NCBI GenBank assembly: GCA_951406725.2
Contig: OX597827.1
Span: 55,366,001-55,430,000, forward strand
Source: Octopus vulgaris
Lineage: Eukaryota
Direction of reading: 5' to 3'
DNA: 64,000 nucleotides
The position numbers and the translations under genes were made by a program. The notes beneath the pieces were generated by a model that saw only the letters and a program-made list of their open reading frames with translations, was not told where the DNA came from and made no database searches. Positions 1,423 to 56,802 of this stretch are shown piece after piece. Within the stretch, counting starts at the first letter, position 1. The number at the start of each line of letters is the position of its first letter.

Positions 1423-1843
1423 ATTTTCTGAACGTTATGAGGAAGCAAAATCCGGCTGATGGCGCACTCTTGTAAACGTATGCCAACTAAGGCTATGGAA
1501 CAAAGAATTAGAGCAAAAAAAAAAAAAAGTCAGAGACAAATTATCGTTTCGTTGTAGAATATATTCATAGAATTGATAATTTTCTAAAGCTGCACTCTTA
1601 ACATTATAAATCTGTTCAGCTATTAATATTTTACGTTCGTATTGCAAATGACTTCAGGAGCAAGTTGCATAAATTTAATCAGTCCTTCTTTTAATCTATC
1701 AAAATAATTTTATTTTAATAAACAGATTGAAATATTTTATATATTTCTTTTGTAAAAATTGAAACTGACAAAAAGGAAGAAAGTCAGCTATTTATTGGTA
1801 CTGCTTTAATAAATATATAATGAAACGTACCTGTGAATTCCAT
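1423..1843 (-). CDS. 5' exons of an unidentified gene (exon 1831-1843, exon 1423-1492; MEFTALVGIRLQECAISRILLPHNVQK...), continuing left of the window
   Basis: ATG GAA TTC ACA G|gtacgt; acceptor ctaattctttgttccatag with branch-like ctaat; AT|gtatgt donor; phases fit; CpG-retaining region. Confidence 0.45.
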
Positions 1844-1878
1844 CGGTGAAGAAAGGTTTCTTTGACATCATGTAAAAA

Positions 1879-2040
1879 TTCCCGCACAAAGAAAGAACAT
1901 CAAAGAACAATTTAACGGAAATTACCGAATTGTTTCAAAGTGCAACGTTACCACGGAAATGTTAGCAGAACTATTGGAGTTAAACTGTATTTTTGTTTTA
2001 CCCTATTGTCATTGGTTTTGGAATGGTACATTTTACCGAA
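1879..2040 (-). promoter_or_regulatory. Putative promoter of the left gene: E2F-like TTCCCGC plus shared module
   Basis: Lies just upstream of the ATG at 1843; aligns by eye with 42961-43085. Confidence 0.4.
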
Positions 2041-2313
2041 ATGTAATTATTAACTTACATGTTATGTTAACACAATTTCTCGCGTTCTTATTACAAAAAA
2101 TAATACTTATATATGGCAACTGTTAAGTCACGTGTTAAAATGCTGGGAAATTTTCTTTAATGTATCAAAATGTTACAAGTTTAATCTAAGTTTCGTTTTA
2201 ATCGTTAGCAATAATGTATGTGGATCGCTAGACATGTGCAGATGGAATAAGTTTAACACTATTTTAACGAAAAACAATTGCCTGGAATTTTATATACAGT
2301 ATTCATACATCCC

Positions 2314-9776: not shown

Positions 9777-9891
9777 TTAAATATCTAAAATCAGTCCAGA
9801 TTTCACTTCTTCTTCCTGTTCTAAATGCTGGAACTTCAGAGAAGATTGTTGTACTGTTAAAGTTTCAATGGCAGCTAATAACTCATTGATC
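9777..9891 (-). CDS. HAUS8: HAUS8 terminal coding exon (INELLAAIETL...GLILDI*)
   Basis: Long pyrimidine tract with tag acceptor; TAA stop at 9777-9779; candidate AATAAA at 9703-9708 on the minus strand. Confidence 0.88.
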
Positions 9892-10283
9892 CTAGGGTTT
9901 AAGAGAAAAGAAAAGAGAAAAATGAGAGCAATTCTAATAATTCAGAAGTTAAATTATTTAAAACAAAACAATATATTTCTCTTATATAGAAAATTACATA
10001 ATTAAAATAAAACAGATTTTTGAAGAGCTTAAAAGCATACATCTTTGCCAATGATACATGAAATGGACAGTAATTGTGTCCCCCACACCACCAGTAATGC
10101 ACCTTCATCTTCAGTAAATGGACTGCAGCTATGCTGGGGCATGGTCTTCAAGAGATGATTTGAATGCATCATCTCCAGTACTTATTCAACTGATCTCTTT
10201 TGCCAGACAACCAAAAACACAAAAGCAAAGTCAGCTGGCAAGTTATGTGGAAGGAACATAAACGCACAAATACATTAATTGAG

Positions 10284-10315
<32 letters not shown>

Positions 10316-13300
10316 TACACTCATGGAGTGGTTGGCGTTAGGAAGGGCATCCAGCCGTAGAAACATTGCCAGATCAGACCGGGCTTGGTGCAGCCTTCTG
10401 GCTTCCCAGACCCCAGTTGAACCGTCCAACCCATACTAGCATGGAAAGCGGACACTAAATGATGATAATGATGATATACACATACACACATATATACACA
10501 TATACACTCGAATGGCTTCCATACAGTTTCTGTCTACCAAATTCACTCAAAAGTTATTCATCAGTCAGAGACTATAATAGAAGACACTTGGCCAAGGGAC
10601 TACACAGTGGGATTGAACCTGACGCCACATGATTGCAAAGTGAACTTTCTAACCATACAGCCATGCCTTTACCTGTGGTCATATTTTTTTTAAATCTTAT
10701 CTCGATATATCCATTTACGTTTTATACAGAAACAAGAACATGTTTATGGCTTGAATTAAAGGAATAATTACTTTGTAAGGAAATAAATTAATGGAAGTGG
10801 TAAGTACTGAAACCCAAATTGACACTTACTGCTCAATTTCAGTTTTCTCTGTGGAAATTGTATCAACTAAATGTTTCAAGTGGGAATTGTACAAGGACAA
10901 AGATGGCATCTTAGTTTCGGTTACATCAGTTATTTTCTCCAAAAGCTGTTCTGTTTCTACAAAATTATTTGTCAAATCATCTAAAAAAAAAAAGAGGAAG
11001 AAACAAAAACTAAAATTTCATTTCAATTTCACACACATCCTCAGCAGCCTCTGAAAAGATAAAATACAAAGCAAACAAATTCTTCACTTGACAACTAAAA
11101 ATCTACTCCCCAACACTACAACCATCAAGTCCACCATCCTGTCTGTCGTTTCTTACACTTTTGACAAGTTTCCAGTTTTCTGAAATATCCAGCTCTGTAC
11201 CACCCCCACTAGACGCATCTACCTCCTCTATTTATCAAGGTGCTATTTTTACTTTTCAGTCTTTCTGTCTTTTGAGCAGCTGTGTCAATAGGATACCAGG
11301 TAATCTCTGTCAAAGTTCTGTAGTTCATATTGTCAATGTTCTTTTATTCTTTTACTTGTTTCAGTCATTTGACTGTGGCCATGCTAGAGCACCGCCTTTA
11401 GTTGAATAAATCAGCCTCCAGGACTTATTCTTTGTAAGCCTAGTACTTATTCTATTGGCCTCTTTTGCCAAACCATTAAGTTACAGGGACATAAACACCA
11501 ACATCAGTTGTCAAATGATGGTGGCAGGACAAACAGACACACAAATACATACATATAGACGTATGTATATATGTATGTATATATATATGATGAGCTTCTT
11601 TCAGTTTCCGACTACCAAATCCACTTGTGAGGCTATAGCAGAAGGCACTTGCCCGAGTGCCTTGCAGTGGGACTGAACCCAGAACTAAGTGATTGGGAAG
11701 CAAGTTTCTTACCACACAGCCACTCCTGTATCTGTTGAAAAATAAATATGATCAAAAATACTGCAGGAAGTATGAAATAAACAGAAATGTAGAAACACGT
11801 CAAAAGTACTAACATTACCTGCAGTACAAATTCACCAAAAACTGACACCAAAACTATTTAGTATTTAGTATTTAGTATTTAGTATTTTAGCCAAAGGCTA
11901 AAATACTAAATAGAGTCTCATATTTTGGAGTTGCACAAAATAAAAATAAAATACATTCGCATAGGGAATAAATGAAAGGAATAATTACCAATGTAAGATT
12001 CATCATTTGAATGAAAAATTCCTTCAGTAGCAATCTGATGAGGAACTGTATCCAATACCTCAGCTAAATTATGATGTTTTGATTTCATATCAGATAATGA
12101 GCTGTTTACTTTGGAAACTGCACTTTTCTGTTTATAAAAGAAAATGTTAAAACATTATTATTATTATTATTATTACTATTTATGAGCTACTGTACAGCAC
12201 ATACATTTGATCACTATAAACAAATCATTTGTGCAGATTGTTCATCTTGGACGAGAGACTCCATAATCATCATCATTTTTATTATTTCTAAGGTAACAAG
12301 TGTGGCAGAATCGTTAGCACTCTCGGCAAAATGTTTAGTGGTATTTCATCCATCTTCACATGCTGAGTGAAAATTCCATCGAGGTTGACTTTGCTATCCA
12401 TCCTTTCAGGGTCAATAAAATAAGTCCCAGTTGAGTACTGGGGTCAATGTAATTGACTATCTCCTGCCCCAAAATTTCAGGCCTTGTGCCTATAGTAGAA
12501 AATATCATTTCTATCAAGGCAGCAAGTTGGCTGAATTGTTAAAATGTTGGGTGAAATGTTTAGTGGCATTTCTTCCATCTTTTTGTTCTGAGTTCAAATT
12601 CTGCTGAAATCGACTTTGCATTTCATCCTTTTAGGGTCGATAAATTAAGTACCAGTGAAACAATGGGGTTGATGTATTCAATTAGTTCATTCCCCCAAAA
12701 TTTCAGGCCTTGTGCCTTTAGTAGAAAGGATTATTATTATTTATGAAGGTCATATATGTGGCAGCAGGATTTGGCTCTGAGCCATACCTCTGGAAAGAGA
12801 ATTGGGTCATCCCATAAACAATGCGGTTTTGTTATGCTTTTTATTTTTCAAAATTAAGATAAACAAAGTTCTTTTTCAATCTAAAATATACTCTATTTTC
12901 TACAATGTTCTTCCCTATATCTGGTAGAATTGCAAGGCCCCTCTTCCAAAATTCACTTGTATGTAACGGAAAATATTCCTTCAGTACTGTTCTAAGCTCG
13001 TCTACAGAATTCATATTTTTTTCCATCCAAAGGATTTTGAAGACTGTGGAATAAATGATAATCAGATGGGGCAGTGTCTGGCAAATATGGTGGGTGGGGA
13101 ATTGTTTCCCATTCAAACTGCTCTAGCCTTTGGAATGTCATCCTTGCTGTATATGATCGAGCATTATCTTGATGGAAGAACACCTTTTGTCTTGAAACCA
13201 AAGATGGTCATTTTTCTTCTAGCACCAACTTGAATGACCAAATCTAAGCTTTTCAGCTAGTTCCTCAACAGTTACAATGGGATTTTTGTTCCATCAGGGT

Positions 13301-16300
13301 TTGCAGATCTTCCAGGATGAGGTTTGTCATCTAGGCTCCAGTTTCTGGAACTACCATTAATACTAGCTTACACTTATTGTCCGATCCCAATATACTGCAT
13401 TAATATTCCTCGTACTTTCTGTTGCATTGATGCTTTTATTGAATTCACAAAGCAAAATATGCTGAATATGTTCCTCTGCCACTGCCATTATATCTTTGAA
13501 AAAAATACCTGTTAAAATTGAGCTGCACTCTTCAAAACTTGCACTAAGAATAAGCACAAGGTAAAATTACTACCTGCTTTTATAGCAAGTTGATGCAGGT
13601 AGTTTACCTCATCCCCCACCAACTTTTAGTTCATGCAATTGAAAAAAACCACATTATTTATGGGATGGCCCAATACACCTGATTATTATAAACAACTCGC
13701 TTGTGCAGGTTGTTCAGCAAAAAGCTGAATATTCATGTTGCTGAACAACCTGCAGTTTATAATAATCAGATGTATTGTTTATAATAATCAGATGTATTGG
13801 GTCATCCCATAAATATGGTATTTTTCAATTGCCTGAACTAAAAGTTGGAGGGGGATGAGGTAAACTACCTGCATCAACTTGCTATAAAAGCAGTTAATAA
13901 TTTTACCTTGTGCTTATTCTTAGTGCATATTTGGCATATTTTGCTTTATAAGTTCAATCAGTGCAACGGAAAGTTCGAGGAATATTAATGCAGTATATGG
14001 GGATCAGACAATAAGCATAAGCCAGTGTCAACGGTAGTTTCAGAAACTGGAGCCGAGATGATAAGCCTCATCCTGGAAGATCTGCAAACCCTGGCTTTGC
14101 CTTTCATCCTTTCAGGGTCAATAAATTAAGTACCAGTGAAACAATGGGGTATTCAATTAGTTCATTCCCCCAAAATGTCAGGCCTTGTGCCTTTAGTAGA
14201 AAGGATTATTATTATTTATGAAGGTCATATATGTGGCAGAAGACATTATTATTATTATTATTCCTATCTTGTTTGTCTACCTCATCCCAGCTTCTAAGTA
14301 TTCCATTTAAATTCACTGTTAAATTATAATTTTTAACACTACTGATTATCATCTTTTACTTTTTTTTAGTCATTGGACCAGGCTGAGCACCACCTTGTAG
14401 GGATTTGTGTGTGTGTGTACATATATATATCATCATCATTTAACGTCCGCTTTCCATGCTAGCATGGGTTGGACGGTTCAACTGGGGTCTGGGGAGCCCG
14501 AAGGCTGCACCAGGCCAGTCAGATCTGGCAGTGTTTCTACAGCTGGATGCCCTTCCTAACGCCAACCACTCCGAGAGTGTAGTGGGTGATTTTATGTGCC
14601 ACCGACACAGGTGCCAGACGAGGCTGGCGAACAGCCACGCTCGGATGGTGTTTTTTATGTGCCACCGACACAGGTGCCAGACGAGGCTGGCAGACGGCCA
14701 TATATATATATATATGACACTTCCACATAGTTTCCATCTGTTAAATTGACTTAAAAGCATTGATCGGCCTAAGGCTGTAAGTAGAAGACATTTGCCCAAG
14801 GTGTCATGCAGTGGGACTGAACCTAAAACCACATGGTAGCAAAGCAGGCTTCTTAACCACACAGACATTCTTTTTAATACATTACCACTGCTACATCCTT
14901 GTTTTTCATGTCAACACCACATCACTTTCTATTTATCTTATCTTTTATTCTTTTCTATTTTCGACTGTTAACTTTATACAGACATTCATTCTCATTCATC
15001 ATCAAGCTTCTACAACTTTGATTTACAACTCCAGTACACTGGCCACTCTTAACCACAACTACTTTCTAGCTGCTGTGGCAACTTCTGGTTGTATGGTCAA
15101 AATTCAACCTTTGACCTTATCTTGCATTTCACTCTTACCTACACTCCTCCAACTTTATTAATAGACCTCTCTTCTTTACTCTTCATCTTTCTCCCTCTTT
15201 CACATTTTTTCCCACTAACTCCCTTTAGCCAAGTATTCCTTCTCTTCTTTCTGTTGCCCTCCCAACATTCCGCCTTTATATGTCCTTCTCACTTTTCCAT
15301 TTCCTATCATTTACTTTTCAGCCTTTACCCATTTTCTCCAGGTTCTGGAGCTGTCTTGAGATCATGGTGGAAGCTAACCATAATCTAGTTGATATTTCTT
15401 TTGATTTTTTAAAAATACTTTTATTTTTAAGTGGGATGATGTGCTTTCTTTTCATTTTATGCAAACTGTCAAATTTAGCCTGAACACTGTCTCCACCAAC
15501 ATGCCTGTACCATTCCTTCAGTGCTCTGCTCGGTTATAAACCAAGAATGGCCAACAAAAGTAGCATTAATTTTTTAGGTTGTTCAATAATGAACCTATAA
15601 TGACTACTGGAAAAAGCTTTAAGTTTAATTTACTACAATAAAAAAAAAAAAATGTAATGACCATTACTTACGTTTTGTCTTAGAGACAAAAAGGAAATTT
15701 GAAACCTACCATCTCATATTTTCATCAAATTTTGACCAGTTATACCTATCAGTAAGGACAGAAAAAGTGCAAAATTTTAGGCCCCAGTTCCCAACAGTTC
15801 AAAAGTTGTGCTGATTTTAAATTTGGCTCAAATCATCTGCTTTTAGACCTGTGACAGCCATCTTGGATTTCAATACCGCAACAAATAATGTAATGACTTT
15901 CAATCCACAGACTATTTTTCTGAAAATTTGTACCTAACCATTTTTTAGAGTGCTGAATCTGAATTTGAAGAGAAAAGAGTGTATTTCTTATGGCAAAGTG
16001 CACATTCTCATGAATTAAAATGAAAACACTTCACCGCATCCCACCAACACTGCTGTGTATGCAAAGTCAAATTCCCAGAAGTGCCCAAATCCTACAGCTT
16101 TAACCCTTTTGTTACTAACCCGGCCGTAGCCGACCGAAAATTTTTTTGGTTCATAATACCAAGCCGGCCGTGAGAACCTATTGTTATTTAAATGTAAATT
16201 TGAACCCAAATCTCGTTGGTACATTCGTTAAAACATGTGATTTCACATTGTAAATAGTTAAGTTATAGTATCCGACATTGCTTGAAGTGATATCTCAACT

Positions 16301-19300
16301 CAGTGAATTTTGGGAGATTTTTTTCCACATGTTTTTCGGCATCGATTTTTCTTCAACTTTGAAAATGGATAGGAGTTTCATGTTATCAAGCATTGATTCC
16401 GAATTTAAAGCTTTTTCAATGGAAAATAGGGAGATATCGAGAAAAAGAATGAAATAGGTACTAAAGCACGTGGTGTACAAAATAATGAATATTTTTTTAT
16501 CCGAAAATGAAAACAGCGCCTTCCGAAGAAACAAAGCGGCGAAGGTGACAGCAAAGACGATTTTACATCGGCATGAAGTAAAAAAACTTTAAAAATGTTT
16601 TTATTAGCAATTTTTCTGAGGAGATAAAGTTTATCTATAGCCTTTCTTAGGAAGTGAAACCATTAGACTTTTATTTTTTTCAGTATGCTAGTTTGAAGCG
16701 ATCACTTCGGAAACAAACTTACGCAGATTGTAAACAAACCCAAAATGGGGGTTCAAAGTTTGGAAAATTTGTGAAGCAAATACTGGGTACTGTTGTGGAT
16801 TTAGTTTTTATACAGGGAAACTAATGTTAGTCAGCATGGCTTAGGGTACGATGTGGTCTGGAAGTTATTGTTTGAAGTGATCAATGCGGAAACAAACTTA
16901 CGCAGATGGGGGATCAAATTTCGGAAAATTTGTGAAGCAAATACTGGGTACTGCGTGGATTTAGTTTTTATACAGAGAAAATAATGTTAGTCAGCGTGGC
17001 CTAGGGAACGATGTGGTCTGGAATTTATCACTTCCATACCATAACCAGGGCCGTATATTATTTTTTGACCGATTTCTTTAGTTCGTTCAAACTTGAGGTG
17101 GATTCCAGATTTCACTTTATTCCACCTTTATGGTTACACCTGTTGTGCATTAAATTCAACTGATGATCTAGTGATGTGCACAATTCTTCTTTATCAAAAT
17201 TTTGTTGCATACCCATTTGAATATTAGCTGATGATTCATTTTCTATAGTGATGTTTAAACAAAATTTTAATTTTTTACCTTTTGCTCAATTTAAAATTAT
17301 AATATTTTTACCTTTTGCTCAATTTACCTGGATTTACCTGTAATTAAAGTCACTTTGAGACAAAATTTATGCAATAGAATTGATTAAGAACCCTTTCTTT
17401 AATTATGTTCCAAATATCACATTAATATGTTGATAAGTAAAAAAGTTACAGTTATTTAATGAAACAAGCCTAAATTCATGATTATTTTAGAATTTAATTG
17501 AAACTCATGAGGGGTGTATTTTGGTCAGAAATATAGTAACGAAAGGGTTTAAACTTTTAGCACATAAACTGGACAATCTTTTACTTGTGTGTGAAAAATC
17601 TCAATGGTACTCTCAAGACATCAAAAATTTCAAACCACCAAGTTGAGCCACTCATTTGATATTTTCCAACCACAATCACAGTAAACACAGCAGTCAGAGG
17701 AAATTGTCACTTCCTGTTTTTCTTCTTCAAATTCTGTTCTCACAAAGGTCATAAAGGTACAGCTGATTGTGGAAGTTAAAGGTGCAGTTGCAAAGAAACT
17801 TGCTTGTGTGCTAAAAGTCAATGATTCCGGTCTTCAAGAAGGAAAACAAGTGAACATTGGCAAAGAGACACAGTCAAAAGCAAATGATCTAGATTACTTG
17901 GTTGCAGTATATGAAGGAAAAAATTAAAAGTGCTGGCCAAAAGCAAAAACTTCAGATCTTGACTTTGGTTCCAAATTCTTGGTCTGTAAGAAGAATTGCC
18001 AAAGAATTCAGAGTGTCAAAAAAGTACCATTCAACCTGGCTATTTGAATGGTACTTGAAGATGGCCAAATTTCAAATCCTCCTAACTTTTGAACTGTTGG
18101 GAGTTGGTGTCTGAAATTTTGCACTTTTTCTGTTCTTACTGATAGGAACAACTGGTAAAAATTTTGTGAAAATCTGAGATGGTGAGTTTCATGCCTGTCC
18201 TACATTTATATAGAATCACCCTATAAAAATATAAAATTGTGCATATCCATGTGTATGAAGTTACATACATACCTGAAGTTCACCTAAACGGGTAACCAGC
18301 TTATTGTGATTTATTTTTCTCAGTTGCAGATGTAAATCTAACTCTTTCTCACTATCAGATTGAGTCAAGTAACATAAATCTTGAATCTGCCTCTGTTAAG
18401 TATTTTAAACAATGTGGATTGACAAATTATGATTAACAGAAAAAAAACACACGATACAAAGACTTGTTCATGAAACAAAACTATAATAATAAACATAAAC
18501 AATACACATATACAATGTAAATGGATAACAGCACAAGGTCATGTAATTTGTAGGAGAGGTGAACAGTTATATAAATGACTAATATATGACATGTATTTCA
18601 TTTATTAATCTTTGCATGCTGAAAAGCAATGCTGTTCCCAGTAAAGATTTGAAAATAGAATGTAGAGGGACAAAAGTAAACAATTTAAAACATTTAGTCC
18701 AAACAATACACAATGCTTAAACTTTCTTCCAACAAATTTAAAACAGAGATAGAGTGGATAAAGAAATAATTGAAGTTATTAAAAAAAAAATGAAAACAAC
18801 AAAATAGAAATAAGATCACAAAATGTCATGCTATAATGGTAAAAGCCCCTTTATGGCCAATACTAACACTGAAGGGTTTATTCACACAATATGAAAACAT
18901 CTCTACAAAAAACGATTTAAAAAAACAAAATGAAGTAGAATATAAAATTAAAATACAAGGAGATTGTGAAATAATAAATCACATAATCTCTATTACCATA
19001 GAACTCAGTGAGACTTTACATTTTATGTTATGGTAAAATTCCACAGAATGTTGAATTTGTGTCCATAGCACTGATCAACAATGCTGACCACGGAAGACCA
19101 GTAACTGACAGACCATTCATTGCACAGAATAAAAATGTATTTTCCTTAAGGAAATGTTTTTCTTGGTCACAACATAGAATGTATGAATGTGTATAGTGAA
19201 GCTCTAGACAGCAACTCTCAGGTTATCTCTGTAAAACTGAGACAGAGATAACCCTTCAAACCATCAGTCCTTTTTTAACCTTTTGGTAGCTAAACTCCTC

Positions 19301-22300
19301 CCTACATCATAGAGAAGCATGGATCTTCAATTGTAGCAATGAGATCCAGCCTAAAATGTGCACGCCAAACTCACCCATGAACAGTAAGAATAAAGACCAT
19401 ACAAAATAAAGGGGAATCTTTAGTCTCTCAAGTGCTGTGGTAGCACAATAATATGTTCCCACCCTATGCTAAAAAGTAGTTGTAATACGAAAATAAAGGA
19501 ACACGCAGGAGTGGCTGTGTAGTAAGTACCTTACTTACCAACCACATGGTTCCAGGTTCAGTCCCACTGCGTGGCACCTTGGGCAAGTGTCTTCTACTAT
19601 AGCCTCGGGCCGACCAAAGTCTTGTGAGTGGATTTGGTAGACGGAAACTGAAAGAAGCCCGTTGTATATATATGTATGCATATATATATGTTTGTGTGTT
19701 TTTGTTTGTCCCCCCAACATCGCTTGACAACCGATGCTGGTGTATTTACGTCCCCGTAACTTAGCAATTCGGCAAAAGAGACCGATAGAATAAGTACTAG
19801 GCTTACAAAGAATAAGTCCTGGGGTCGATGCTCCAGCATGGCCACAGTCAAATGACTGAAACAAGTAAAAGAGAGAACACAAAAGAGCCGCTTGATATTT
19901 TCTTGTGCTGACCACTGTAGTATTGGTAGCAGAAAATGCAACCTGTCCATGCTATAAACTGATCTGTGAATGCTCTTCTGAAAATAATGACATTCTAGGC
20001 CTGATGGCAAAGGACCTTGGTAGATCAAGCCATACAACAGGTGACTCTTTAGTACTCACAAGGCACAGAAATCGCTACTACCAGTAAAGTAACCATAGAA
20101 GGGAAGTAACTCTCAAAGAGAACTAACAGAGGCTGTGTCTCTAGTCCTCTGCGTGAAAAATTTTCTCTAGTGGTGGGTATATTAAAAAAAAAATCAAGGG
20201 AAGTAACTCTGAATAAAAACTGATGTAGATAAATTATGACCTTTCCAACCTAGACCAGTATGGTAAAAAGGACATAAAAAAATGATAGCCATTCTTTTAT
20301 GTGAGAATGGTAATTCACATAATCCATGAGGACCCACAAATACTTCTTAAGACATTGTATTTATTTTATAGTAATACCACTGTTTGCAGCTTTTCCTATT
20401 CTGTAGTAGCTTTTTTATAGTTAGAGGAATTGAGCAAATTAAGGTGTGTTTCTCTGTTATAGTGTTTTGACACCTTTTTACATATCTTTTGTTATGTATA
20501 GCCAGATCAGCTTTCTCATACCCAGTCTTCTCTCAGCTCTTTTACACACCATCGTTCTTGCACACACAATAGAGTATACATGTCTCACTACCTTCCAACC
20601 TTTACACATACCCTGCATTCAATACCCGTGTTTTGCTATCGTGCAACATTGCACCTTGTACACAAGCACCATACCATCTGCCCTTCACTTGAAGAGGAAA
20701 TCCCTTCATTGATAAGCTCTATAAAGAAGTGCCAATCTTTTGTAGACGGAACACACAAAAGAAGGACACTCAAATTGACATGGGATGGATTACTGAAGGA
20801 CGACCTCAGGTTGTTGAACCTTTCAGATGAGATGACAAAGGACTGAGATACCTGGTACTTTGTTGTACTCAAGAAAATCTGTACTCCACAGCAGAAGTGT
20901 TAGGGCCACTCCCCCTGGTGAAGGGTATTAGTCTGCCAGAGTCCTGTGCAAGTATCATATTAGAGCGCTCATGTGGTGCCACTTTAAAAGCATCCAGCAC
21001 CACACACTGCAAAGTGGTTGGCATTAGGAAGGGCATCCAGCCATAGAAACCATCCCAAATCAGACTGGAACCTGGTGCAGCTCTCTGACTTGCCAGCTCT
21101 GGTCAAACCATTCAACCCATGCCATATTGGAAAAATGGACATAAATGGTGATGAGGTAATGACTCCACAAACAGTTTTTACTATGCATTCAGAACACTGA
21201 CCTCCAGCTCAATGAATGCCAGGTATAGAGCAGTGATTCTCAGCTGGGGTCCATATAAGATTATATTGTTAAAAAGTATGTGCAATAAATTGGTTTATCT
21301 CTACAATGCACAAAATATTTAAAGAATTTTTTAATACAATTTCTAATAATATAAGATTATGCAGTTTGCTATAAGTCTTTCTGTTACTTTAATAACCCAA
21401 TCTATCAATTCAGCACCTCTGTAGTTGCTTGTCTTGGGCAGTTCCATTGCCTTTGTAACAATCGGTAATTATACTGCTACACCAGTCACAGGGTATGACA
21501 CTACCTTGGACTACCTGACTGACTGTGATAATGACTACAATTCATCCTACTTAGATGGATATTTGTAGCATCTCAGCAACTATTCCTGGTCTAGTTGCTT
21601 TTCCTACCTTTACATCCTTAACTGTGCTTTCAATTGTACAGCTATCTGCTTCAATAGCTGGTCCCTCTGTTGGTCTACTTTGAGTAGTCCCATTCTCCCA
21701 ACATTCTGTAATCTCTTGGAATAACAATTACAGGCTTCTTTCTTGTGTGTGTTAGTGATGGCAAGGGTGTCACTTTTCAGTTAACACATTTCCCTAATGA
21801 CATCTCAAACTGCGCCAATACCTTGCCTTATGCAATCCACCTCTAACCCTTTGCAAATTCTTAGCAAACCTCTTACTTCCATCATCTCTCAGTAGTTTAA
21901 CTTTCACAGCTCTGTCTGGTGTTCTATTCTACTGCCATGCCAACTTGTCTGGCTGGGAGCTTGTTCCACCATCCACAGATCTGGTCTGTGGCTTGCAATA
22001 GGTTGTCTCATACAAACTCTTAGTTGTCTTGTATGTCATAACCCCAATATCCTCCTTTCTCTCATCATATGCATTAACTTGTATTTCTATGAACCTATGT
22101 CCAGCAGCTTCCATACCTATATCAATAAATAAATAAATAAAGTGTGCAGTTATATAACTACTTACTGCCGCATCAGCTTCTCTCTTCTGAATTGCTTTCT
22201 GCACCATTTTATCAAGATAAAGTGTTTGGATGTAATTGGTGTATAAAATATCCACTTCTATCTGGTTGAGAGGTGCTTTTTGCTAAAATTATCATTGAAT

Positions 22301-24582
22301 GAAAAAAATTAAATAAATATTTGCATGCATGTAAATATGCATATAATTAATATACTTGCATTAAAATCATGAAGGAAAAAATTATATATTTTGAGTATAA
22401 ACTACATTTTTAAAAATCTAATAATTCTATTTAAAAATCAATAGTAAAATTTAAATAATCTCCTGATATAATACTTACAGAAAACAAAGCCTATCACAAA
22501 TCATTTTCAAAATATACTTGCAAGAATCCCAAAACTTATTGAATTACAGTAGCACTACCTGAAGAATTGCGAATCATAAGTGTATCTATTTCTTTACTAC
22601 CCACAAGGGACTAAACACAGAGAGGACAAACAAGGACAGACAAACGGATTAAGTCGATTATATCGACCCCAGTGCGTAACTGGTACTTATTTAATTGACC
22701 CTGAAAGGATGAAAGGCAAAGTCGCCCTTGGCGAAATTTGAACTCAGAATGTAGCGGCAGACAAAATACCGCTAAGCATTTCGCATTTTAACTCAATATT
22801 ACAGGTTAATGAAACGTACATCAATTATACATTACTGATCCAGTTTACCATGCCAAATTTGGGTGGACAGAGCCATTTCAGTGTTTAGTGTATTGATCTT
22901 TAACTTAGCATGCCACCATTTGTAGGGTATTGACTGTCAAACCTTTGGTTATTTGGTTGATATGCAATCAATTCAGTCAGTTGATACCCTCTGACTTCAT
23001 AAGTTATAATTTGAACTGCATGATAGTAACAATTATACCATAGGTACCCTATTTACCATTTCTCTTCTTCAAATATTGATCATTATTTAACACCCATTTT
23101 TCTATGCTTGCATGCTTCAGACACAATTCTTCAAGGTAGGTTTTTTTTACAGATGGACACCCTTCCAGTCATCAACCTTCAAATGTTTCCAGGCAAGGTA
23201 ATAATTTTCAATGCCCAGATGTGTTTCTCACTATAGACTGAAAGCAAACAACACTGCTTGTATGATGATGATGATGCTTGTTTATAATACTCACAGGGCT
23301 TTTTGGTTAGTCTGCCTGGAGTCATAGTAAAAGAATACTTGCCTAAAGTACTGCACAATAGGACTGAACATTAGAAATGGTAGGGAATCAAGCTTCTCAA
23401 CCACACAGCTCAAAAGGGATCCAGTTCACTCTTTAAGGTGGTTGGCATTAGGAAGGGCATCCAGCCATAAAAGTCTGCCAAACAGACCTTACTAGTGCTG
23501 GTGCCATGTAAAATGTACCCAGTCCCCTCTGTAAAGTGGAAGGGCATCCAGCCGTAAAAACCATGTCAAGAAAGAGTGGAGCTTGGTGCAGGCCTTTGGC
23601 TTACCAGCTCCTGTTAAACCATCTAACCCATGCCAGCATGAGTAAATGGATGTTAAATGATGAAGATGATATCAAAATAAACTAAAAAAGATATATCAGA
23701 ATTAAGAAATAAGAGAAAAATATTACTTCTTTATTTACTTCAGGATCCTCCAGTGGCAGTGAAGCTTCCTTGTTCTTGGTAGTTTTGAAAATATCTCTGC
23801 GACAACTGAGTTTAGGTCCTTCAGACCCTAGTAACATAGAAAGATCAATTCATACAGTTTCAGAAGTAGACTTTAAACCCTTTAGCATTCAGATTACTGT
23901 CAGACATAATGTTTATATATTCAGTTAGTTCTAAATTAATTTTGTATGATATCTTAGCTTCAAGATTTTTGTGTTTGTTTACTTTTAGAATGACATTATA
24001 GGGTAAGTGTGACAGGTTGAATCTGACCAGTTTGAATATAAAACAGGTAGAATATTTTAGTTGGGTTAAATGTTAATGGGTTAAGCTTCCAACACTCTAA
24101 ACTAAGTTTTATTAAGCTTACTTACTAGTGATACTAAGTCTATTCATACTTTTGTATCCCTTTATATTTCATTTTAACACAACTTGGCCCATTCTAAAAA
24201 TTTAAAGCTTCACCTCACCCAGTTTCTTGAAGAAAAAAATAGCTAAAGTTATTTTTTTAATAACAAAAACAGATTCTTATATACTGCATTATGCACCAGT
24301 GTCTGCTTTAGTAAGGTTCCTATGGCTGGATGCTTTTCCTAATGCTTATTTTATATATATATATACACAGTTCACTCTTTAAGGTGGTTGTCATTAGGAA
24401 GGGCATCCAGCCTGCCAAACAGACCTTACTAGTGCTGGTGCCATGTGTATGTATGTATGTATGTATGTATGTATGTATATATATATATATATATATATTG
24501 TTGGGTACCTATCTGGCAGTATATTGGATATATATTATCCCATGGTGGGTTGAATTTTCAACCCCTATCTCATTTTATAACC

Positions 24583-24613
<31 letters not shown>

Positions 24614-24798
24614 AGAGTTTATGAAAAAAACAAAAGACGAAGATAGGTGGTGTACAAAACAAACAGATGTATTAGTGTAACGCTTAGAAATAGAAAAAGT
24701 CTTTTACGTTTCGAGCCTACGCTCTTCTACAGAAAGGGACACAGAAAAAACAAAGAGAGAAAAAAATGTGTGTAGTGGCTAACAATCTATCATGGCGA

Positions 24799-24841
<43 letters not shown>

Positions 24842-27800
24842 GAGTGAAATAGAAAGATGAATAATCTTGTTGCAGATTAATCAAAAGTTTAACCGATACC
24901 TTGGTAGCAAAAATCACAGCAGAAGAAAGCACGGTTGGAGGTACAACCATATGGTGTTGCAACCGTGCGTTGGTGCGGATAATTGAATTTTAATATTATT
25001 AGTGAATTGAAGAAATGGAGTTGAACGAAGATTGAACAGAAATCCTTTTATTGCATTCTACACGTGTTTCGAAAGCCACAATTTACCAAATTCCGATTGA
25101 ATAAGGAGACCATATTGTGTCTTTCTCTTCAGGAAGAAATAGGAATTCCGTTGGCAAAACAAAAACAGAACAGAGGCGCAGCAAAACAAATCGAACGAGG
25201 AGGCTCCTAATATACATACACACACACAAACATATAATGGTCTTCTTTCAGTTTCTGTCTACCAAATCCATTCACAAGAATTTGGTCAACTGACGTACTG
25301 CGCAGTAGGAGTGGACTTGAAACTACGTATATGGTCAGGAAGTAAGTTTCTGAACTACATGGGGATAGTTTATAAAATATATTTGGAGTTTAAGATGAGA
25401 AGAAAAGGGAATGATATAAGAAGAACAAAAGAAAGAACCAGAAATAAACAAAAGAGGAATAGAGAGAGAGAGAGAGCAAGAAAGAGAACAGAGAGGAAAC
25501 ATGAGTGAGAAAGAAGAAACAATGTAGAAAGGAATAGAAAGGAATGAGAGAGAGAATTTGTGACTTGAATTAGAAATAATTCTGTATTACAATTAGGTAC
25601 AAGCATTTACAGATTTTATAAGATTTTGAGGTAAAATATTTGAAAGACAAATGTTGGCCTCATATAACATCATAATTGATCTGATCTACCAAAACTAAAC
25701 CAAAAATGCAATATGGATTAGTGAAGGATCTTACATGTTGACATATCTTGAATAATTGTGGATGCATCTGAATAGGGTAAAGGAAGATCGTCTTTGTTTG
25801 GAGTCGACGTTTGCTTAGACTCAGTCTTCCCCACTTTTTTGTTCTCTTTGAGTCGAGTGAAACTGTAATTGGATTCTTCTCTGCTGTTCTTTCTAGATTG
25901 ATTGTTACAGTTGTTGTTACTATTTCCTGACAGCACACTGAGTTCTTCAGATGACACACTATTTGTTTCAGTCAGAGTCACATTATGACCACTTTTGGAT
26001 TCCTGAAAGAAAAAAAAAAAACACCCAGTTACTTATTAAAAAAATGACGTAAGCATTAATTAAAACTTTATCAAGGAGATATATCGATCTTATGCTTTTA
26101 AAATTATTTTATTCATTCTAGAAGGATGAAGGGCAAATATTTAACTCATTAGCATTTAATCTGGCTCAAATATTCTACCCGTTTTATGTTAAAAATGACC
26201 AGATTGAACAGCTTACATTTATGTCAACATGCTGGTATTGGACAGGTATGCTATCAGCAAATCCTTATTAATCTCAATCCAATATCATTTATTTTGTGAG
26301 GCCCAATATCTTGAGATCTGCCCTCACTACTTCCATACACCATCTACTATGGGCATCCCCCACTTGGTATCTTTCATTCAGCATTCATCCATTTAAACCA
26401 CAAGTCTGTTCTGGCATGGTTTCTATGGATGGATGCCCTTCCTAACATCAATTCTGCTGCAGTGGACAGATCTTCTTGAGTATAGCAATGTACCAGATAT
26501 CTTGGTTCTTAGTTACCTCCTTCATAAGGCTCAGTGTTTTGAGATCAGCGTTCAACACTGTTTCATGTCTTCCTGGGTCTCCCTCTTCTACAAGTTCCAT
26601 CCATTTTAAGTGATCAGCACTTCTGTATATAACTGTCTACATCCATATCAGCTGATGCCTTAAATGCTTGAGTACTCTTTAAGTTTACATGTGATGTGAA
26701 ACAGTTGAATGCTTTCCATTCAACATTGTAAGTCACTTACTTCCCCCCAACTTTCCCATGGTTCACACAGATGCAATTTTTTTGGAAGCACTCCGTCGGT
26801 TACGACGATGAGGGTTCCGGTTGATCTGAATCATTGGAACAGCCTGCTCATGAAATTAACGTGTAAGTGGCTGAGCACTCCACAGACACATGTACCCTTA
26901 ACGTAGTTCTCGGGGATATTCAGCGTGACACAGAGTGACAAGGCCGGCCCTTTGAAATACAGGTACAACAGAAACAGGAAGTAAGAGTGAGAGAAAGTTG
27001 TGGTGAAAGAGTACAGCAGGGATCACCACCATCCCCTGCCAGAGCCTCGTGGAGCTTTTAGGTGTTTTCGCTCAATAAACACTCACAACGCCCGGTCTGG
27101 GAATAGAAACCGCGATCCTATGACCGCGAGTCCACTGCCCTAACCACAGGGCCATTGCACCTCCACTACACAGATGCAATATCACACTCCTCACACCTAC
27201 TTCATTGCCTGATTTTTTTTTCTTTAAAGAAATATCCACATGGGGCACCAGAGTAGAATAGTGCTATACCGTAGCAAACAGTCTTCACACAGTATGCTTT
27301 TTTTGCACAGATATGTTTTGTAACAGTCTTTTCAAAAAAGAAAGAAAGGTGGAAAAAAAATAAACATGCCTTCTTTGTAGGTGTTCGAGTTCTGAAATTC
27401 TGAGCAGACTGCATGTATCGTGATGGAATGACTCTTCCTGAAAGCAGAAAACTTTTTTAAAACATATTCTAGTACTTAAACACATAATGGATGTATAAAC
27501 AAAGGCATACACAATTATAGATATATCTTTTGGTAAATAATAATTATAAGCTTATACTTATAATTACTAGCATACCCATGACCCCCACAAAAATGCTGAC
27601 AGTTTTATTAATGATAGAAAATGACACATCAACACAATGGAGAAAACTATTAATAATTGTCAGCAATCTGTAAATATATGAACATACACAGAATTGAAGC
27701 ACTTGGAGAATAAGATGTAACATCTTAGATGAAAATATTACCCACATAATGAAATTTTAATGCCTCATCAATGACCTATCTCTTTCCCAGTATTTTTATC

Positions 27801-30800
27801 TCTTTTATAAAACAACACACTGCAACAAAGATAACACATCTCTGGTAGCTTTAATTTTATTTTTTATTCTGCACTATTAACAGACTGTGTAGGGCAGCTT
27901 TTCCTAATTTTTAAAACATTAAATAGTTAAATGATATTTCTTTCTGAATCCATGATAAGCTGTCAGTTAAATAGCATATTTTCTTAAAGGTCAATTTGAA
28001 CTTTGCCCCCCAATTTATCAAATTACTTAGTCATAATGGAGAGCAATGTGTAATTGCTAAGTGAACAGAACTAGCAAGAATTATGGGTTTTTACTATGAA
28101 CATAGCATAATATAATGACAGTAATGGGATATAAACTGTTAGCCCTTGTTATTCAGAAGAGCAAAATTAAATCAGTATTTCCCAACCTATTTTTCCCCTA
28201 GGCTCTACTACAACTTTCCAGAAAAATGTATACCCCGCCAGTGATTGGAAAAAAAAGCCAACTTTATTTTTAATATTTTATCACAATTCTTTGATACAAA
28301 AGAATCTACTGGTAACTTTTATTAAGTGCTGGCTTATATACTTTCCGTAATGAAATATCCACACTAGGGCATTACGATAGAGCTATACTGTAGCAGTATT
28401 CACACAGTATGCTTGGCTGAGTATAGGTGTAGTATGTTTGCATACTCTAAGGTGACATCAAGCCTCTGGAGACCTTCCTTAATCATATCCAACCACCTGG
28501 GACAGGGTCTGCCTTGGGGCTTCTTCCAGCCTGCAGTTGCTGTGTCAAATGAAAACAAGGGCATGATAGTACGATCTGATCTGATTGGGGGTGGAGGACA
28601 TGTCATTACCAACATGTAGTGGGAGACTGCAGGCTGATGCATGCGTGCACACAGCTCTTCATTGGAAATGTGATGGTACATCACGTTTCCACTTGATAGT
28701 AGACATTATAAACCCCAGTTTGAAATTTAAAAGATAAAGACACAGATAAGAATGATATCATATCTATGAATTAACAGGTAACAGGACCCCCTACAGCAAT
28801 GCTGCTGTCTTTTTCAGTTTCAAATTACTGTTTATAATATCTTATATAATTTACATTAAAATCTTAGTTAATTTATAATGAAATTACTTGGCCTAAACCA
28901 ATGAAGATAGCAAATAACAGCTAAAGTAGAATGAAAGCCTACCTTTCTTTTGAGGTTTTGATGATGATTTTGCACTGAAAAAAATAAAGTGAACAAAGTT
29001 AATATAGAAATAGCACCATTTCAAAAGCAACTTTTTAAACCCCAGGCTTTCTTCTATGAATCTCCGGCCCTTCCTTTCGGTGCTTCTACAATGGCACTTA
29101 AGGTGGTTTGATCATGCAGCCCAGCGTCCAGAGGGTGAGCTGATTCGCGATGTCCCCCTCACACCTCCACTTCCCAACTGGCACAAACGCATGGGCGGGC
29201 AGCTGAAGACCTGGGCAACGACGATAAAGGAGGACCTTTCTGAACTCTCAGGTCTGCAAGTGGTCGGTCTGCGCAGATGGAACCATGAATGGCTCACTAT
29301 CTCCAGTGACCTCGCACAGGACCATACAGCGTGGGCCGCCATGGTTCGTGATGCCAACAGGACCAGAGAAGAAGCTGGCTCAACCCGCCCTGGGTGAACG
29401 CCATCACAAGTACAAGTAAGTAAGGCTTTCTTTCAGATTTTGATTTTTTTGTCTCAATGTGAAGGAAATGGGTTGTGCTCATGCCCCACACAGGTCTTCT
29501 GAGACTTGAGATTGATGCAATTAATATGCTTCCAAAGCAGCTGTGGGTTGACAGCTGCATATAAAACATGTGCAAGGAGAGAATTCCAGAGAGCCAACAA
29601 ATTGAATGCAAAGTTCTGGGTATAGAGGTTAGTGTGAGATTGTTGGACACAATATGATGAGAAAGATAAATTGAAAGTGCCCAAACAGAAGTGGCACAAG
29701 ACCAGCCAGCTCAGAGCAGAAGCCACTGTAGGAGCTGTCGGAAAGGCAGAGAAAGGAGACAGCATGTCTAAGGTGAGAGTGTATTGATGAGTATCTTCAT
29801 GCCAAACAGTCAAGTGGCCTTTATATGTGATTTAGGTCATCAGTATGTGGAACAGCAGTATCGTTCAAGATGTGAGAATAATTCTCTATTGTAGGTTTCA
29901 CCTGAAACTTGCAGAGAGCCAGTAATTGTTAGGGACTAAAGTATTTTCTGGTTCTAAATAAGGCCAAACATTTGTAGCAATCTTGAGGGCTTCTGACTGT
30001 ATGAAACTCTCAAGATTTCATATAACCAGAAATGTAAGGGTATAATATTTTCTTGATACATATAATTAACATGTCCTTGTGCAATTGAAGGAGACAAGAT
30101 TAGTGCAACGGCAACAGAAGATATTTTTGAAGTCCCTGTTTATAGAGTCAGTGTTGATTCAGCATAAAGTAACTAGATCATATATCAATGATGCTTGGCT
30201 GCACAAGGTGAGGGAAGAATGCTTTCTCTCCTTCTGGAGGGCATAAGAAGCTCGTTGATATGTAAGATGAAGAATGAGCTGGCAGAAACGTTAGCACGCC
30301 GGGCGAAATGCGTAGCCATATTTTGTCTGCCGTTACGTTCTGAGTTCAAATTCCGCCGAGGTCGACTTTGCCTTTCATCCTTTCGGGGTCGATAAATTAA
30401 GCACCAGTTATGCACTGGGATCGATATAATCAACTTAATACCTATGTCTGTCCTTGTTTGTCCCCCACTATGTTTAGCCCCTTGTGGGCAGTAAAGAAAT
30501 ATATATAAGATGAAGAGTGGGAGAGACAAAACTGAACATTGAGCTACCCGAGTTTATTGGTCACAGAGAGATCTAGCAGTATACACAGCATGATGATATA
30601 CTCCGACAGGAAGCAATCAATCCATGAGACAAGATAGATGAAACCCATAGGTAAGCAGTTTTGCAAGTTATAAGACAGCGTTTGAAAAAAATCAAAAAAA
30701 AAATCAACATACCCTTTTGGTTCATAATCTTTATCAGGTTTAACAAAGCTATTATTTTCTATACTGGTATTCTTTTGTTTCAAATTAACTGAAAAGAGAA

Positions 30801-33800: not shown

Positions 33801-35118
33801 AGTAAACTCCAGAGAATGGAATGTAAACACAATCCACAATCACCCATCAGGAAAAGTGATACTGACAGTTGATTTTGCACTTGGAATGATCCATACTGGA
33901 GCATTATCAGAGTACTAATTTTAGCAACCTGCAATTTGAAGCAAACACTGAAGACTACTGTCAAAGGCATTGTGTTGTATGATAATACCGATCCCCATGT
34001 TACAGTTTGATCATTTTGCTGAAATCTACTAGAAACCAAAATTTAAAGCATTGGAACCATCTTTTACACAGTCCTGATCTTGCTCCTTCAAGGTGATCAC
34101 CAGTTTGCTCCACTCAAAGCCTCAAGAGGCCATCTATTTGCTAATTGAAACTAGTAAAAGAATATAAAAACACCTGGAAATGGTTCAATTTAGAAATCAA
34201 TAAAATTGAGAGACAAAAATTCAAATTCAAAATTATAAATCCCAGGGTCAAGTTGCTTGATTAAAGGCGGTGCTCCAGCATGGCAGCAGTCAAATGACTG
34301 AAACAAGTAAAAGAGTAAAGAGTATAGATTACCCATAAGTTACTCAATTTCAATCACACTATTTAAGTGGCAAGCTGGTAGAATCGTTAGCATGCCAGGC
34401 AAAATGCTTAGCAGCATTTTGAACACCAATGTTCTGAGTTCAAATTCTGCCAAGGTCAACTTTGACTTTCATCTTTCAGGGTCAATAAAATAGCTGCCAG
34501 TTGAGCATTGGAGATGATGTAATTGACTTATCCTGTACCTCAAAATAACTGGCTTTACACCAAAATTTCAAACCTATTTTAAACACAATACATCAATAGA
34601 AGGACTTAAAAAACAAAAACAAAAAAAAGTACTCACTGTTTTGTCATCAACTTCTTCCTTAGCTTCTTGGTGGGAACTACTTTGGCAGGAGATTGTTCCA
34701 CACAGCGAGTAATTTCCAATACAGAAAAATCTTTATCATTTGGAAAACCAGACTCACAGTTGGAAGTAGTTTCCAAATGAGAACTGACGTCAAAAATTTC
34801 AACTTTTCTGTTCTCTTTGGAAGAATCACAACCCTTGACATAAAAATCAAAACAAAACAATAAAACAATCATTACATTAACAGTGTTTTAGCTTGTTAAA
34901 TATCTTATCTCAAATAAAAATTAGCACATGCTATTAAAAATAGAAGTATCAGTTGTTTTTTTAGCGGCTTACTTTGCAATCACATGGTTTGGGATTCAGT
35001 CCCACTGCACAGCACCTTGGGCAAATGTCTTCTACTATCATCCTATAGTAAATGACTTGTGAGTGAATTTGGTAAACAGAAACTGTGGAAGCCTGCTCTG
35101 TGTGTGAGTGTATGTGTG

Positions 35119-35160
<42 letters not shown>

Positions 35161-40692: not shown

Positions 40693-40725
<33 letters not shown>

Positions 40726-46142: not shown

Positions 46143-46704
46143 CAAGGGGATGCTGAAAAGTTCTAGCCTTGGGTAAAAAAACAAAATATAGGAGGATCAG
46201 TTAATTATGATCTTATTCAAGATATTCCCCCTCTGAGATTCACATTTTAATGTGCTGATTGTATACTGAGTTTAGATTTTAAGTTCTGCACAATGTTATT
46301 GATATGCAATGACATTGCACATAATAGATATCCAGTTTATTAAAAAAACTCTACTTGTTCCAATTTTTAGTGCATAAACTAAGGTGATAACATTAAATGA
46401 ATTGAGGATTTATAAAGATCTGCTGCTTTAGAAGTGGGTAAAACTTGATATTACAGCCCAGGAAATCTGTAATTAAAAATTATGTTCAAGAATATTTAAA
46501 TTAAACTTCACATAAAATGGAATCATAATTGTTTCGTAATATCAACACTTTCTTAATCTTTTGTAATATCAACTCCCAAATTCACGCATTTATTGTAGAA
46601 GTCCTTCAGTTTTTCTAAGCTTTGTAAAAGAACTGGGAAGGTTGGACCTCCAACCAGGCCTTTCGCAATACCCTTAAAGCCAGGAAGTTCTCAGCAACCC
46701 CTCA
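46143..46704. mobile_element. Mariner-derived MITE interrupted by a locally copied insert
   Basis: TA|caaggggatgctgaaaagttc ... gaagttctcagcaacccctca|TA. Confidence 0.7.
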
Positions 46705-51638: not shown

Positions 51639-52034
51639 CTAGCAGTATCGCCCGGCGTTGCTCGGGTTTGTAAGGGAAATAACTATATAAGCATTTTTAG
51701 AGAGTTATAGTCAAAAAATAGCAAAAAAATGCATTAAAAATGGGGAAAAAATTATGGTAAATTTCTTTTTAAATCGTTGATACATCGTAGACATTTTTAG
51801 AGAGTTACTTCCCTATATAATAGCGAAAAAAATGCATAAAATGGAAAAAATGGTGGTAAATTTTTTTTTAAATCATAGACGCATCGTAGTCGTGCGCTAA
51901 TACCCAGAAGGGCTCGATATGAATCACGACTATAAGATACCCGGTTTTGGTTAAACTGCACCGCAAAATGTGGGAGTAGTTAGGAATCTAAATCGTAGGA
52001 GACAGACACACAACCTTACTTTTATATATAAAGA
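51639..52034 (-). mobile_element. Non-autonomous Helitron
   Basis: A|TCTTTATATATAAAA ... cccgagcaacgccggg hairpin, CTAG|T; no TSD. Confidence 0.8.

Positions 52035-54434: not shown

Positions 54435-54467
<33 letters not shown>

Positions 54468-56734: not shown

Positions 56735-56802
<68 letters not shown>

What the first reader, a model, noticed from the sequence alone, without database searches (positions are those of the whole stretch)
1879..2040. The same ~130-bp module plus an E2F-like site sits upstream of two neighbouring genes
Seen: 1911-2040 (tttaacggaaattaccgaattgtttcaaagtgcaacgttaccacggaaatg...) aligns with 42961-43085 (ttcaacggaaattgccgaaatgtttcattgtacaacgttacaccgaattg...). Both copies have the same orientation, lie tens of bases upstream of an aatt(t)cccgc site and a splice donor, and sit in CpG-retaining DNA. 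No other copy was noticed in the window. Conserved blocks include AACGG (Myb-like), CGGAA (ETS-like) and CAACGTTAC. Inference: an old repeat exapted as a reusable promoter cassette, perhaps for cell-cycle genes.
Basis: partly seen in the sequence, partly recalled or inferred. Interest (0 to 1): 0.7.

Follow-up and report, generated by a model that had tools for sequence, protein, structure and literature searches.

The report
Duplicated spindle gene dragged fumarase exon
The repeated stretch is not a reusable promoter cassette: one copy is the protein-coding first exon of the octopus fumarase gene, which sits back to back with a likely spindle gene (HAUS8), and the other is a decayed copy in front of that gene's tandem twin, most likely carried along when the gene was duplicated, which is an ordinary event.

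Summary
The two-copy similarity is real (96/127 aligned columns; score 71 vs shuffles 31±3), but it is not an exapted repeat. Copy B (42980-43087, +) encodes residues 1-36 of annotated mitochondrial fumarase and ends ATG|GT at a donor where RNA contigs leave the window. It lies about 55 bp head-to-head from a HAUS8-like gene on the minus strand. Copy A lies just upstream of an intact 12-exon tandem paralog of that gene (start codon 1868, other exons left of the window). In A the ATG is TTG, the frame is broken and the second Met is gone. The module is as diverged (76%) as other duplicated non-coding blocks (75-84%) and a dead exon (76%), so its 'Myb/ETS' blocks show no special conservation. 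Only two exact copies of its core were found genome-wide. The duplication predates the split of two Octopus species. Side leads: the paralogs lost different parts of the N-terminal tail; and fumarase has an annotated alternative first exon encoding a pogo-transposase-like DNA-binding domain, invariant between species. Transcription across copy A was not tested.

The parts
1831..1868 (-). First coding exon of the HAUS8-like paralog b (13 codons); a second in-frame ATG lies at 1871. The other 11 exons lie left of the window, down to about 22 kb before position 1.
   Evidence: Exact AG/GT fit of 12 exons to annotated protein P0129; O. bimaculoides ortholog P0130
1876..1885 (+). E2F-like site in the 5' leader or start region of paralog b
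   Evidence: E2F binding is inferred, not tested
1911..2042 (+). Copy A: decayed duplicate of fumarase exon 1 (ATG replaced by TTG at 1930, frameshifts, terminal Met lost, GT retained at 2043), lying directly upstream of paralog b
9777..42899 (-). HAUS8-like paralog a. Coding exons: 35812-35744, 34833-34637, 31990-31944, 30788-30713, 28974-28943, 27437-27370, 26002-25735, 23827-23727, 22282-22166, 18392-18273 (skipped in model P0126, present in P0127), 12127-11989, 10980-10830, 9891-9777
   Evidence: RNA-contig joints for the exons from 42783 to 25734; protein fit; HAUS8 identity
10728..11257 (-). Tract around exon 13 likely homogenised between paralogs a and b by gene conversion
   Evidence: 0 synonymous differences at 30.8 sites; flanking introns 91-94% identical against 75-84% elsewhere; species-shared rather than paralog-shared residues
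42783..42899 (-). Non-coding first exon of paralog a; homologous at its 3' end to the coding exon 1 of paralog b, with the same donor phase
   Evidence: the left-hand homology alone is weak (11 of 1000 shuffles reach the score)
42871..42880 (+). Canonical E2F-like site (TTTCCCGC) inside exon 1 of paralog a, about 75 bp from the fumarase 5' end
   Evidence: binding inferred
42954..43087 (+). Copy B: exon 1 of fumarate hydratase. 42980-43087 encodes the predicted mitochondrial presequence plus the second Met; donor GT at 43088
   Evidence: 36/36 identical to the N-terminus of annotated FH isoform X2; contigs of runs X2 and X8 stop matching at 43087
43088..64000 (+). Fumarase intron 1. It continues past the window to exon 2 at offset 77135 and holds the alternative HTH exon at offset 68645-68875.

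Best explanation
Copy B is the coding first exon of mitochondrial fumarase, lying about 55 bp head-to-head from a HAUS8-like gene, and copy A is a decayed copy of that exon in front of a tandem paralog of the same gene, most likely copied along when the gene and its upstream DNA were duplicated. Shown: the identity of exon B, the two collinear intact paralogs, the loss of coding features in A, and background-level divergence of the module. Inferred: one tandem duplication (probably unequal crossing-over) took the whole HAUS8 gene plus the bidirectional promoter. Because that promoter is so short, HAUS8's upstream DNA is fumarase exon 1, so the exon came too, without the rest of fumarase. It then drifted while serving as the CpG-rich upstream region of paralog b. 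The E2F-like sites lie in the 5' leaders of both paralogs and likely give DREAM/E2F cell-cycle control, as reported for human HAUS8.
For: B translates to the first 36 residues of FH isoform X2 in records named O. vulgaris, O. sinensis and O. bimaculoides. The remaining FH exons lie 34-55 kb to the right on the same strand, and the family search found all 8 of its matches at that one locus. RNA contigs splice 42783 to 35825 and on through 7 joints in 3 runs from 3 studies; others cover 42954-43087 and leave at the GT. tblastn and blastn give collinear a/b blocks from the module to the 3' UTR. Both genes fit their annotated proteins exactly with AG/GT(GC) boundaries and shared exon lengths. Both paralogs exist in O. 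bimaculoides, and the tree groups a with a and b with b (95/83 and 99/97), the four together at 100/99. Module identity is 76% against 75-84% for other non-coding collinear blocks, 76% for the dead exon-5 remnant and about 70% for synonymous sites in unconverted exons. Identity by codon position is 26/35, 22/35 and 28/35, which shows no coding signature. HAUS8 identity: Atlas 0.92 and 0.95; profile hits named HAUS8 in 4 of 10 clusters looked up, QWRF-like in 1, 5 unnamed or uncharacterised.
Against: No RNA evidence was obtained for copy A or paralog b, so their expression rests on gene models in two species and an intact frame. Pfam and PDB sequence searches gave no HAUS8 hit. The non-coding comparison blocks were chosen because they align, which biases them upward, and most intron DNA between the paralogs no longer aligns, so mild promoter constraint on A is not excluded; its first 45 nt are 38/45 identical. 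dN/dS between paralogs is high (0.71 over 275 codons; 0.76 in unconverted exons), so selection on b is weak or divergent. The RNA nature of the runs is a guess by the tool. The right-hand breakpoint is not defined (16 of 300 shuffles reach the score).
Confidence: 0.93

Rival explanations
1. An old repeat was exapted independently as a promoter cassette at two genes.
For: Both copies are at gene starts in CpG-retaining DNA. Two other places share a 24-mer at 2 mismatches and are also CpG-rich. Genome DNA searches skip common words and give lower bounds.
Against: Copy B is coding fumarase sequence. The two genes are paralogs, collinear throughout. Only 2 exact hits were found genome-wide. The two near-matches align over only 23-45 bp and are identical to each other in the matched 24-mer.
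Confidence: 0.02
2. Same duplication, but fumarase exon 1 doubles as a constrained proximal promoter for HAUS8, so copy A is kept by selection on transcription-factor sites rather than as a passenger.
For: A still aligns, while most intron DNA between the paralogs does not. The first 45 nt are 84% identical. CpG is retained at A. The 36-residue presequence is 36/36 identical between two Octopus species, whereas the HAUS8 proteins are 83-89% identical.
Against: Whole-module identity equals background. 84% over 45 nt is within the range of intron blocks. The fumarase core is itself 458/464 identical, which makes 36/36 unremarkable.
Confidence: 0.3
3. Copy A still fires on the plus strand and acts as a distant alternative first exon of fumarase, or of a non-coding RNA.
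For: A keeps a GT at the homologous place (2043). One frame is open from an ATG at 1959 into that donor in phase 0, compatible with fumarase exon 2.
Against: No such isoform is among the 4 Octopus fumarase records seen. The intron would be 75 kb long and span paralog a and the real promoter. The 28-codon frame has no presequence character. No fumarase-like or other host-gene Pfam match was found among 125 plus-strand ORFs between 2043 and 25700; the 2 weak hits were transposon-like.
Confidence: 0.07

Closest known systems
Tandem gene duplication at a head-to-head gene pair (for example Uox/Dnase2b with the duplicate Uox2 in turtles; 10.1101/2023.06.02.543418, passages read)
   Same: One partner of a divergent pair with a shared promoter is duplicated locally.
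   Different: Here the neighbour's coding first exon was copied along and is still recognisable as a pseudo-exon upstream of the new paralog.
Fumarate hydratase (class II) with mitochondrial and cytosolic echoforms (PMC6068284, passages read)
   Same: Exon 1 gives a predicted presequence followed by a second Met; an Argonauta record starts at that Met.
   Different: The Octopus annotations add a third N-terminus from an intronic transposase-like HTH exon.
HAUS8/HICE1, augmin subunit 8, listed in the gene table of a p53-DREAM review (PMC5729532, table row and passages seen; PMC9512787, passages)
   Same: Long disordered N-terminal tail plus a conserved C-terminal region; an E2F-like site near the start.
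   Different: Two tandem paralogs with different tails: a keeps the SRY-M and STP motifs of relatives and has only 13 residues before the DLSD motif; b lacks both motifs and has about 100 extra N-terminal residues.
Host-transposase fusion by alternative splicing (SETMAR, KRABINER; 10.1101/2020.05.07.082677, passages read)
   Same: Side finding: a transposase-type DNA-binding exon spliced as an alternative isoform to a host gene.
   Different: The host partner would be a metabolic enzyme and the lineage a mollusc; the passages seen stress KRAB, SET and SCAN partners in vertebrates.

Membership tests
Tandem gene duplication | Adjacent, same-strand, collinear paralogs with shared exon structure | tested here: met
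Tandem gene duplication | Module divergence matches that of the rest of the duplicated segment | tested here: met
   76% against 75-84% (non-coding blocks), 76% (dead exon) and about 70% (synonymous sites)
Exapted interspersed repeat / reusable promoter cassette | Many dispersed copies in the genome | tested here: not met
   1 match by DNA search, 2 exact pattern hits, 4 at up to 2 mismatches of which the 2 new ones do not extend; counts are lower bounds
Exapted interspersed repeat / reusable promoter cassette | Copies at unrelated genes | tested here: not met
   The two genes are paralogs
Fumarate hydratase exon 1 | Encodes the N-terminus of annotated FH and joins exon 2 in phase | tested here: met
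   36/36 identity; phase-0 donor and acceptor; contigs end their match at the donor; the junction itself was not read
Mitochondrial presequence | Basic and hydroxylated, poor in acidic residues; imported and cleaved | tested here: inconclusive
   6 R/K, 7 S/T, 1 D/E in 35 residues; import not testable here
Bidirectional promoter | Divergent 5' ends less than 1 kb apart in CpG-rich DNA | tested here: met
   Contig ends at 42899 (minus gene) and 42954 (plus gene), one contig bridging both; contigs cannot show true starts or strand
HAUS8 (augmin subunit 8) | Homology of the C-terminal region to named HAUS8 proteins | tested here: met
   Profile hits down to E 7e-27 named HAUS8 in Mytilus, Tegillarca, Batillaria and Owenia; Atlas; no Pfam or PDB hit
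HAUS8 (augmin subunit 8) | Assembly into augmin and microtubule binding by the tail | not tested
   No complex prediction or assay was run
E2F/DREAM-regulated promoter | E2F site near the start, bound by E2F/DP, with cell-cycle-dependent expression | not testable with these tools
   The sites are present; the consensus is recalled; binding and expression are unknown
Host-transposase fusion (side finding) | Transposase-derived domain on its own exon | tested here: met
   BrkDBD E 5.8e-7 and HTH_Tnp_1 E 2.1e-6; 24-39% identity to 6 other loci, of which L017, L018, L020 and L021 carry pogo-like transposase frames by my recalled motif reading
Host-transposase fusion (side finding) | Spliced transcript and protein shown | not tested
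   Gene models only, in three Octopus species

The most novel reading that the evidence does not exclude
Octopus fumarase chooses its destination by swapping first exons. Copy B gives the mitochondrial presequence, while an intronic exon captured from a pogo-type transposase gives a 77-residue Brinker-like DNA-binding domain, 77/77 identical between two species whose neighbouring HAUS8 proteins differ by 11-17%. This would be a DNA-tethered fumarase that changes fumarate levels locally on chromatin: a transposase capture by a metabolic enzyme. Beside it, the HAUS8 twins would have split the ancestral microtubule-binding tail between them, giving octopus two kinds of augmin.
Probability: 0.3. 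Interest if true: 0.7.

Novelty: new member of a known kind. Interest (0 to 1): 0.27.

Why it matters
The finding itself is ordinary: it shows how a paralog's promoter can look like a shared regulatory cassette, and how a poorly conserved presequence exon escapes a reader. It gives a tidy natural experiment, the same 130 bp with and without coding duty, for asking whether an exon doubles as a promoter. The side leads matter more if true. A transposase-HTH-fumarase isoform would make the chromatin role of fumarase (PMC6068284) directly testable in a form with built-in DNA binding. Two HAUS8 paralogs with different tails would let one separate the functions of tail motifs in branching microtubule nucleation.

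Tried and rejected
1) Dispersed repeat: the DNA search gave 1 match, the exact pattern 2, and 2 mismatches 4; the extras did not extend. 2) A paralog search between window parts left and right of 42000 found only repeats; it missed the paralog because both genes lie left of that cut. 3) Pfam on 125 plus-strand ORFs right of A gave 2 weak transposon-like hits and no host gene. The 120 plus-strand ORFs listed between 43088 and 64000 were not scanned. 4) No listed run is on record as RNA; four guessed-RNA runs were laid on 25001-45000 only. No reads were laid on copy A, so its transcription is open. 5) Ancestry of paralog b's N-terminus: a profile from 23 outgroup N-termini did not score b above shuffles (147 and 402 of 1000 shuffles were as high), although MAFFT places it against the outgroup motif. 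The claim that b kept the ancestral N-terminus is therefore positional only. No remnants of b's exons 1b/1c were found in a's intron, and none of a's exons 4, 7 and 8 in b; only exon 5 left a remnant. 6) PDB and Pfam gave no HAUS8 match. 7) A scallop record also joins pogo-type HTH domains to fumarase (P0104), but its N-terminus shows no similarity to the octopus HTH and it may be a merged gene model, so it is not counted as support. 8) My first exon boundaries for b were off by 1-2 nt and were corrected by an exact fit. 9) The tree used 19 of 50 outgroup hits, C-terminal parts only. 10) Literature: (listings), plus find-passages in PMC10027918 (0 hits for 'fumar' and 'brinker') and PMC10778463, showed no report of the octopus HAUS8 duplication or the HTH-fumarase isoform. 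The library lacks most subscription journals, and no supplements were read; the fusion lists of the transposase-capture preprint and of PMC10027918 could bear on novelty.

Full report
1. Observation. Copy A (1911-2042) and copy B (42961-43084) align at 70.5% over 132 columns, E 7e-11, or 96 of 127 non-gap columns. The score of 71 exceeds all 200 dinucleotide shuffles (mean 30.9, sd 2.6). Both sit in CpG-retaining DNA (o/e 1.19 and 1.05; window median 0.37). The E2F-like sites are at 1876-1885 and 42871-42880. The minus-strand donors are at 1831|1830 and 42783|42782.

2. Not a repeat family. A DNA search of the 2.8-Gb genome with copy A returned only itself. A 24-mer pattern covering both copies matched twice. 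With two mismatches it matched four times, and the two new places align over only 23-45 bp. These searches give lower bounds, but nothing points to dispersal.

3. Copy B is fumarase exon 1. Contigs from four runs guessed to be RNA were laid on 25001-45000. In three runs from three studies a minus-strand transcript splices 42783 to 35825 and on through seven joints. In two runs contigs cover up to 43087 and continue elsewhere; 43085-43089 reads ATG|GT. 42980-43087 translates to 36 residues that are identical to the N-terminus of fumarate hydratase isoform X2 in records named O. vulgaris, O. sinensis and O. bimaculoides. The remaining exons lie at offsets 77135-97817 to the right, all at one locus. 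The peptide has presequence composition (6 R/K, 7 S/T, 1 D/E) and ends in a second Met, at which an Argonauta record starts. This fits the two fumarase echoforms described in PMC6068284 (passages). The 'Myb-like' and 'ETS-like' words lie in the short leader, and CAACGTTAC lies in codons 5-8.

4. The minus-strand gene is HAUS8-like, and it has a twin. The spliced exons give protein P0126. Pfam and PDB were blank, but the Atlas ranks HAUS8 clusters first (0.92). A profile search found 53 proteins; of 10 clusters looked up, 4 carry the name HAUS8, 1 is QWRF-like and 5 are uncharacterised or unnamed. tblastn showed a second copy of these exons left of the window on the same strand. It corresponds to annotated P0129, whose first exon is 1868-1831 and whose 12 exons fit exactly with AG/GT ends. 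O. bimaculoides has both genes. The tree groups a with a and b with b, sister to one unnamed sequence (19 of 50 outgroup hits used). The duplication therefore predates the split of these two species.

5. Copy A is a decayed copy of the exon. The start codon is TTG, the segments homologous to the presequence are spread over three frames, and the terminal ATG is missing, while the GT remains. Identity by codon position of B is 26/35, 22/35 and 28/35. The module's 76% equals other non-coding collinear blocks (75-84%, chosen because they align), the dead exon-5 remnant in b (56/74), and is close to synonymous identity in unconverted exons (pS 0.305). The first 45 nt reach 38/45. No fumarase exon follows A.

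6. Mechanism. Contig ends put the two 5' ends about 55 bp apart (42899 and 42954), so the DNA upstream of HAUS8 is fumarase exon 1. A tandem duplication of HAUS8 with its upstream DNA (inferred; probably unequal crossing-over) copied the exon without the rest of fumarase. It lost coding function and remains as the CpG-rich upstream region of paralog b. The E2F-like sites are retained in both leaders despite deletions around them. HAUS8 appears in the gene table of a p53-DREAM review (PMC5729532, row seen), so E2F/DREAM control is likely but untested. The canonical 8-mer alone is at chance level for the window (1 found, 0.55 expected). No reads were laid on copy A, so its activity is inferred from gene models and CpG retention.

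7. Paralog divergence. Paralog a has 13 residues before the DLSD motif and keeps the SRY-M and STP motifs seen in many relatives. Paralog b has about 100 more N-terminal residues and lacks exons 4, 5, 7 and 8 with those motifs. The HAUS8 tail is the microtubule-binding part (PMC9512787, passages), so reciprocal loss is an attractive reading. However, b's N-terminus did not score above shuffles against an outgroup profile, so only b's losses and a's short N-terminus are shown. dN/dS between paralogs is 0.71. Exon 13 and its flanks look converted: no synonymous difference, introns 91-94% identical, and residues shared within species.

8. Side finding. Fumarase isoform X1 in the same three species starts with a 77-residue exon at offset 68645-68875, 4.6 kb right of the window, ending CTG|GT in phase 0. 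It matches BrkDBD and HTH_Tnp_1 and, at 24-39%, six other loci, four of the five read carrying pogo-like transposase frames (family label recalled). It is 77/77 identical between O. vulgaris and O. bimaculoides: as expected at the fumarase-core rate (458/464, p 0.37), but not at the HAUS8 rates (p 1e-4 to 6e-7). The junction is known here from gene models only. It resembles transposase capture by alternative splicing (10.1101/2020.05.07.082677, passages). Six literature searches and find-passages in PMC10027918 showed no report of it; supplements were not read.

9. Verdict. The feature is real and explained: a new member of a known kind, tandem duplication at a head-to-head gene pair. Interest 0.27, most of it owed to the side leads. 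Earlier scan notes held nothing on this place; two notes on other tandem duplications in this genome are context only.

Noticed in passing
L010:4645-4875 (+), window offset 68645-68875: Alternative first exon of fumarase isoform X1 encoding a Brinker/transposase-type HTH, annotated in three Octopus species and 77/77 identical between two; a candidate transposase capture by a metabolic enzyme.
   Followed up: partly
protein P0104: A scallop record joins CENP-B_N and HTH_Tnp_Tc5 domains to fumarase; unrelated in sequence to the octopus HTH; an independent capture or a merged gene model.
   Followed up: partly
window 9777-42899 and offsets 1868 to -22073: The two HAUS8 paralogs differ in their N-terminal tails: b lacks four exons with the SRY-M and STP motifs (a remnant of exon 5 with stops lies at offsets -10685 to -10761); a lacks about 100 N-terminal residues.
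   Followed up: partly
window 10728-11257 against offsets -19968 to -19436: Likely gene conversion over exon 13 and flanks, apparently in both Octopus lineages.
   Followed up: partly
window 18273-18392 (-): An intact-looking 120-nt exon present in the O. bimaculoides model and in paralog b but skipped in model P0126: alternative splicing or an annotation gap.
   Followed up: no
window 27370|27369 (-): GC-AG intron after exon 7 of paralog a (joint seen).
   Followed up: partly
L008-L005 (offsets about -40800 to -11500, +): An ankyrin-repeat gene on the plus strand; two unassigned plus-strand ORFs at offsets -14041 and -11741 lie within the span of paralog b and may be its exons, which would make the genes overlap in antisense. 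The names ANKRD53-like and, for an exon at offset -58193, enolase-4-like are recalled, not from a call.
   Followed up: no
window 6001-7000, 16001-17000, 57001-58000, 62001 onward: Further CpG-retaining patches not assigned to any gene start found here; the long one from 62000 to about offset 70000 includes the HTH exon.
   Followed up: no
L014:1493-1532 and L015:1493-1532: Two distant loci share 40 bp at 95% that include a near-match to the module's 24-mer core; probably a short element of another repeat family.
   Followed up: partly
window 17893-18111 (+) and 2957-3181 (+): Weak Pfam hits (HTH_23 E 7e-4; GIIM E 7e-3), probably transposon relics.
   Followed up: no
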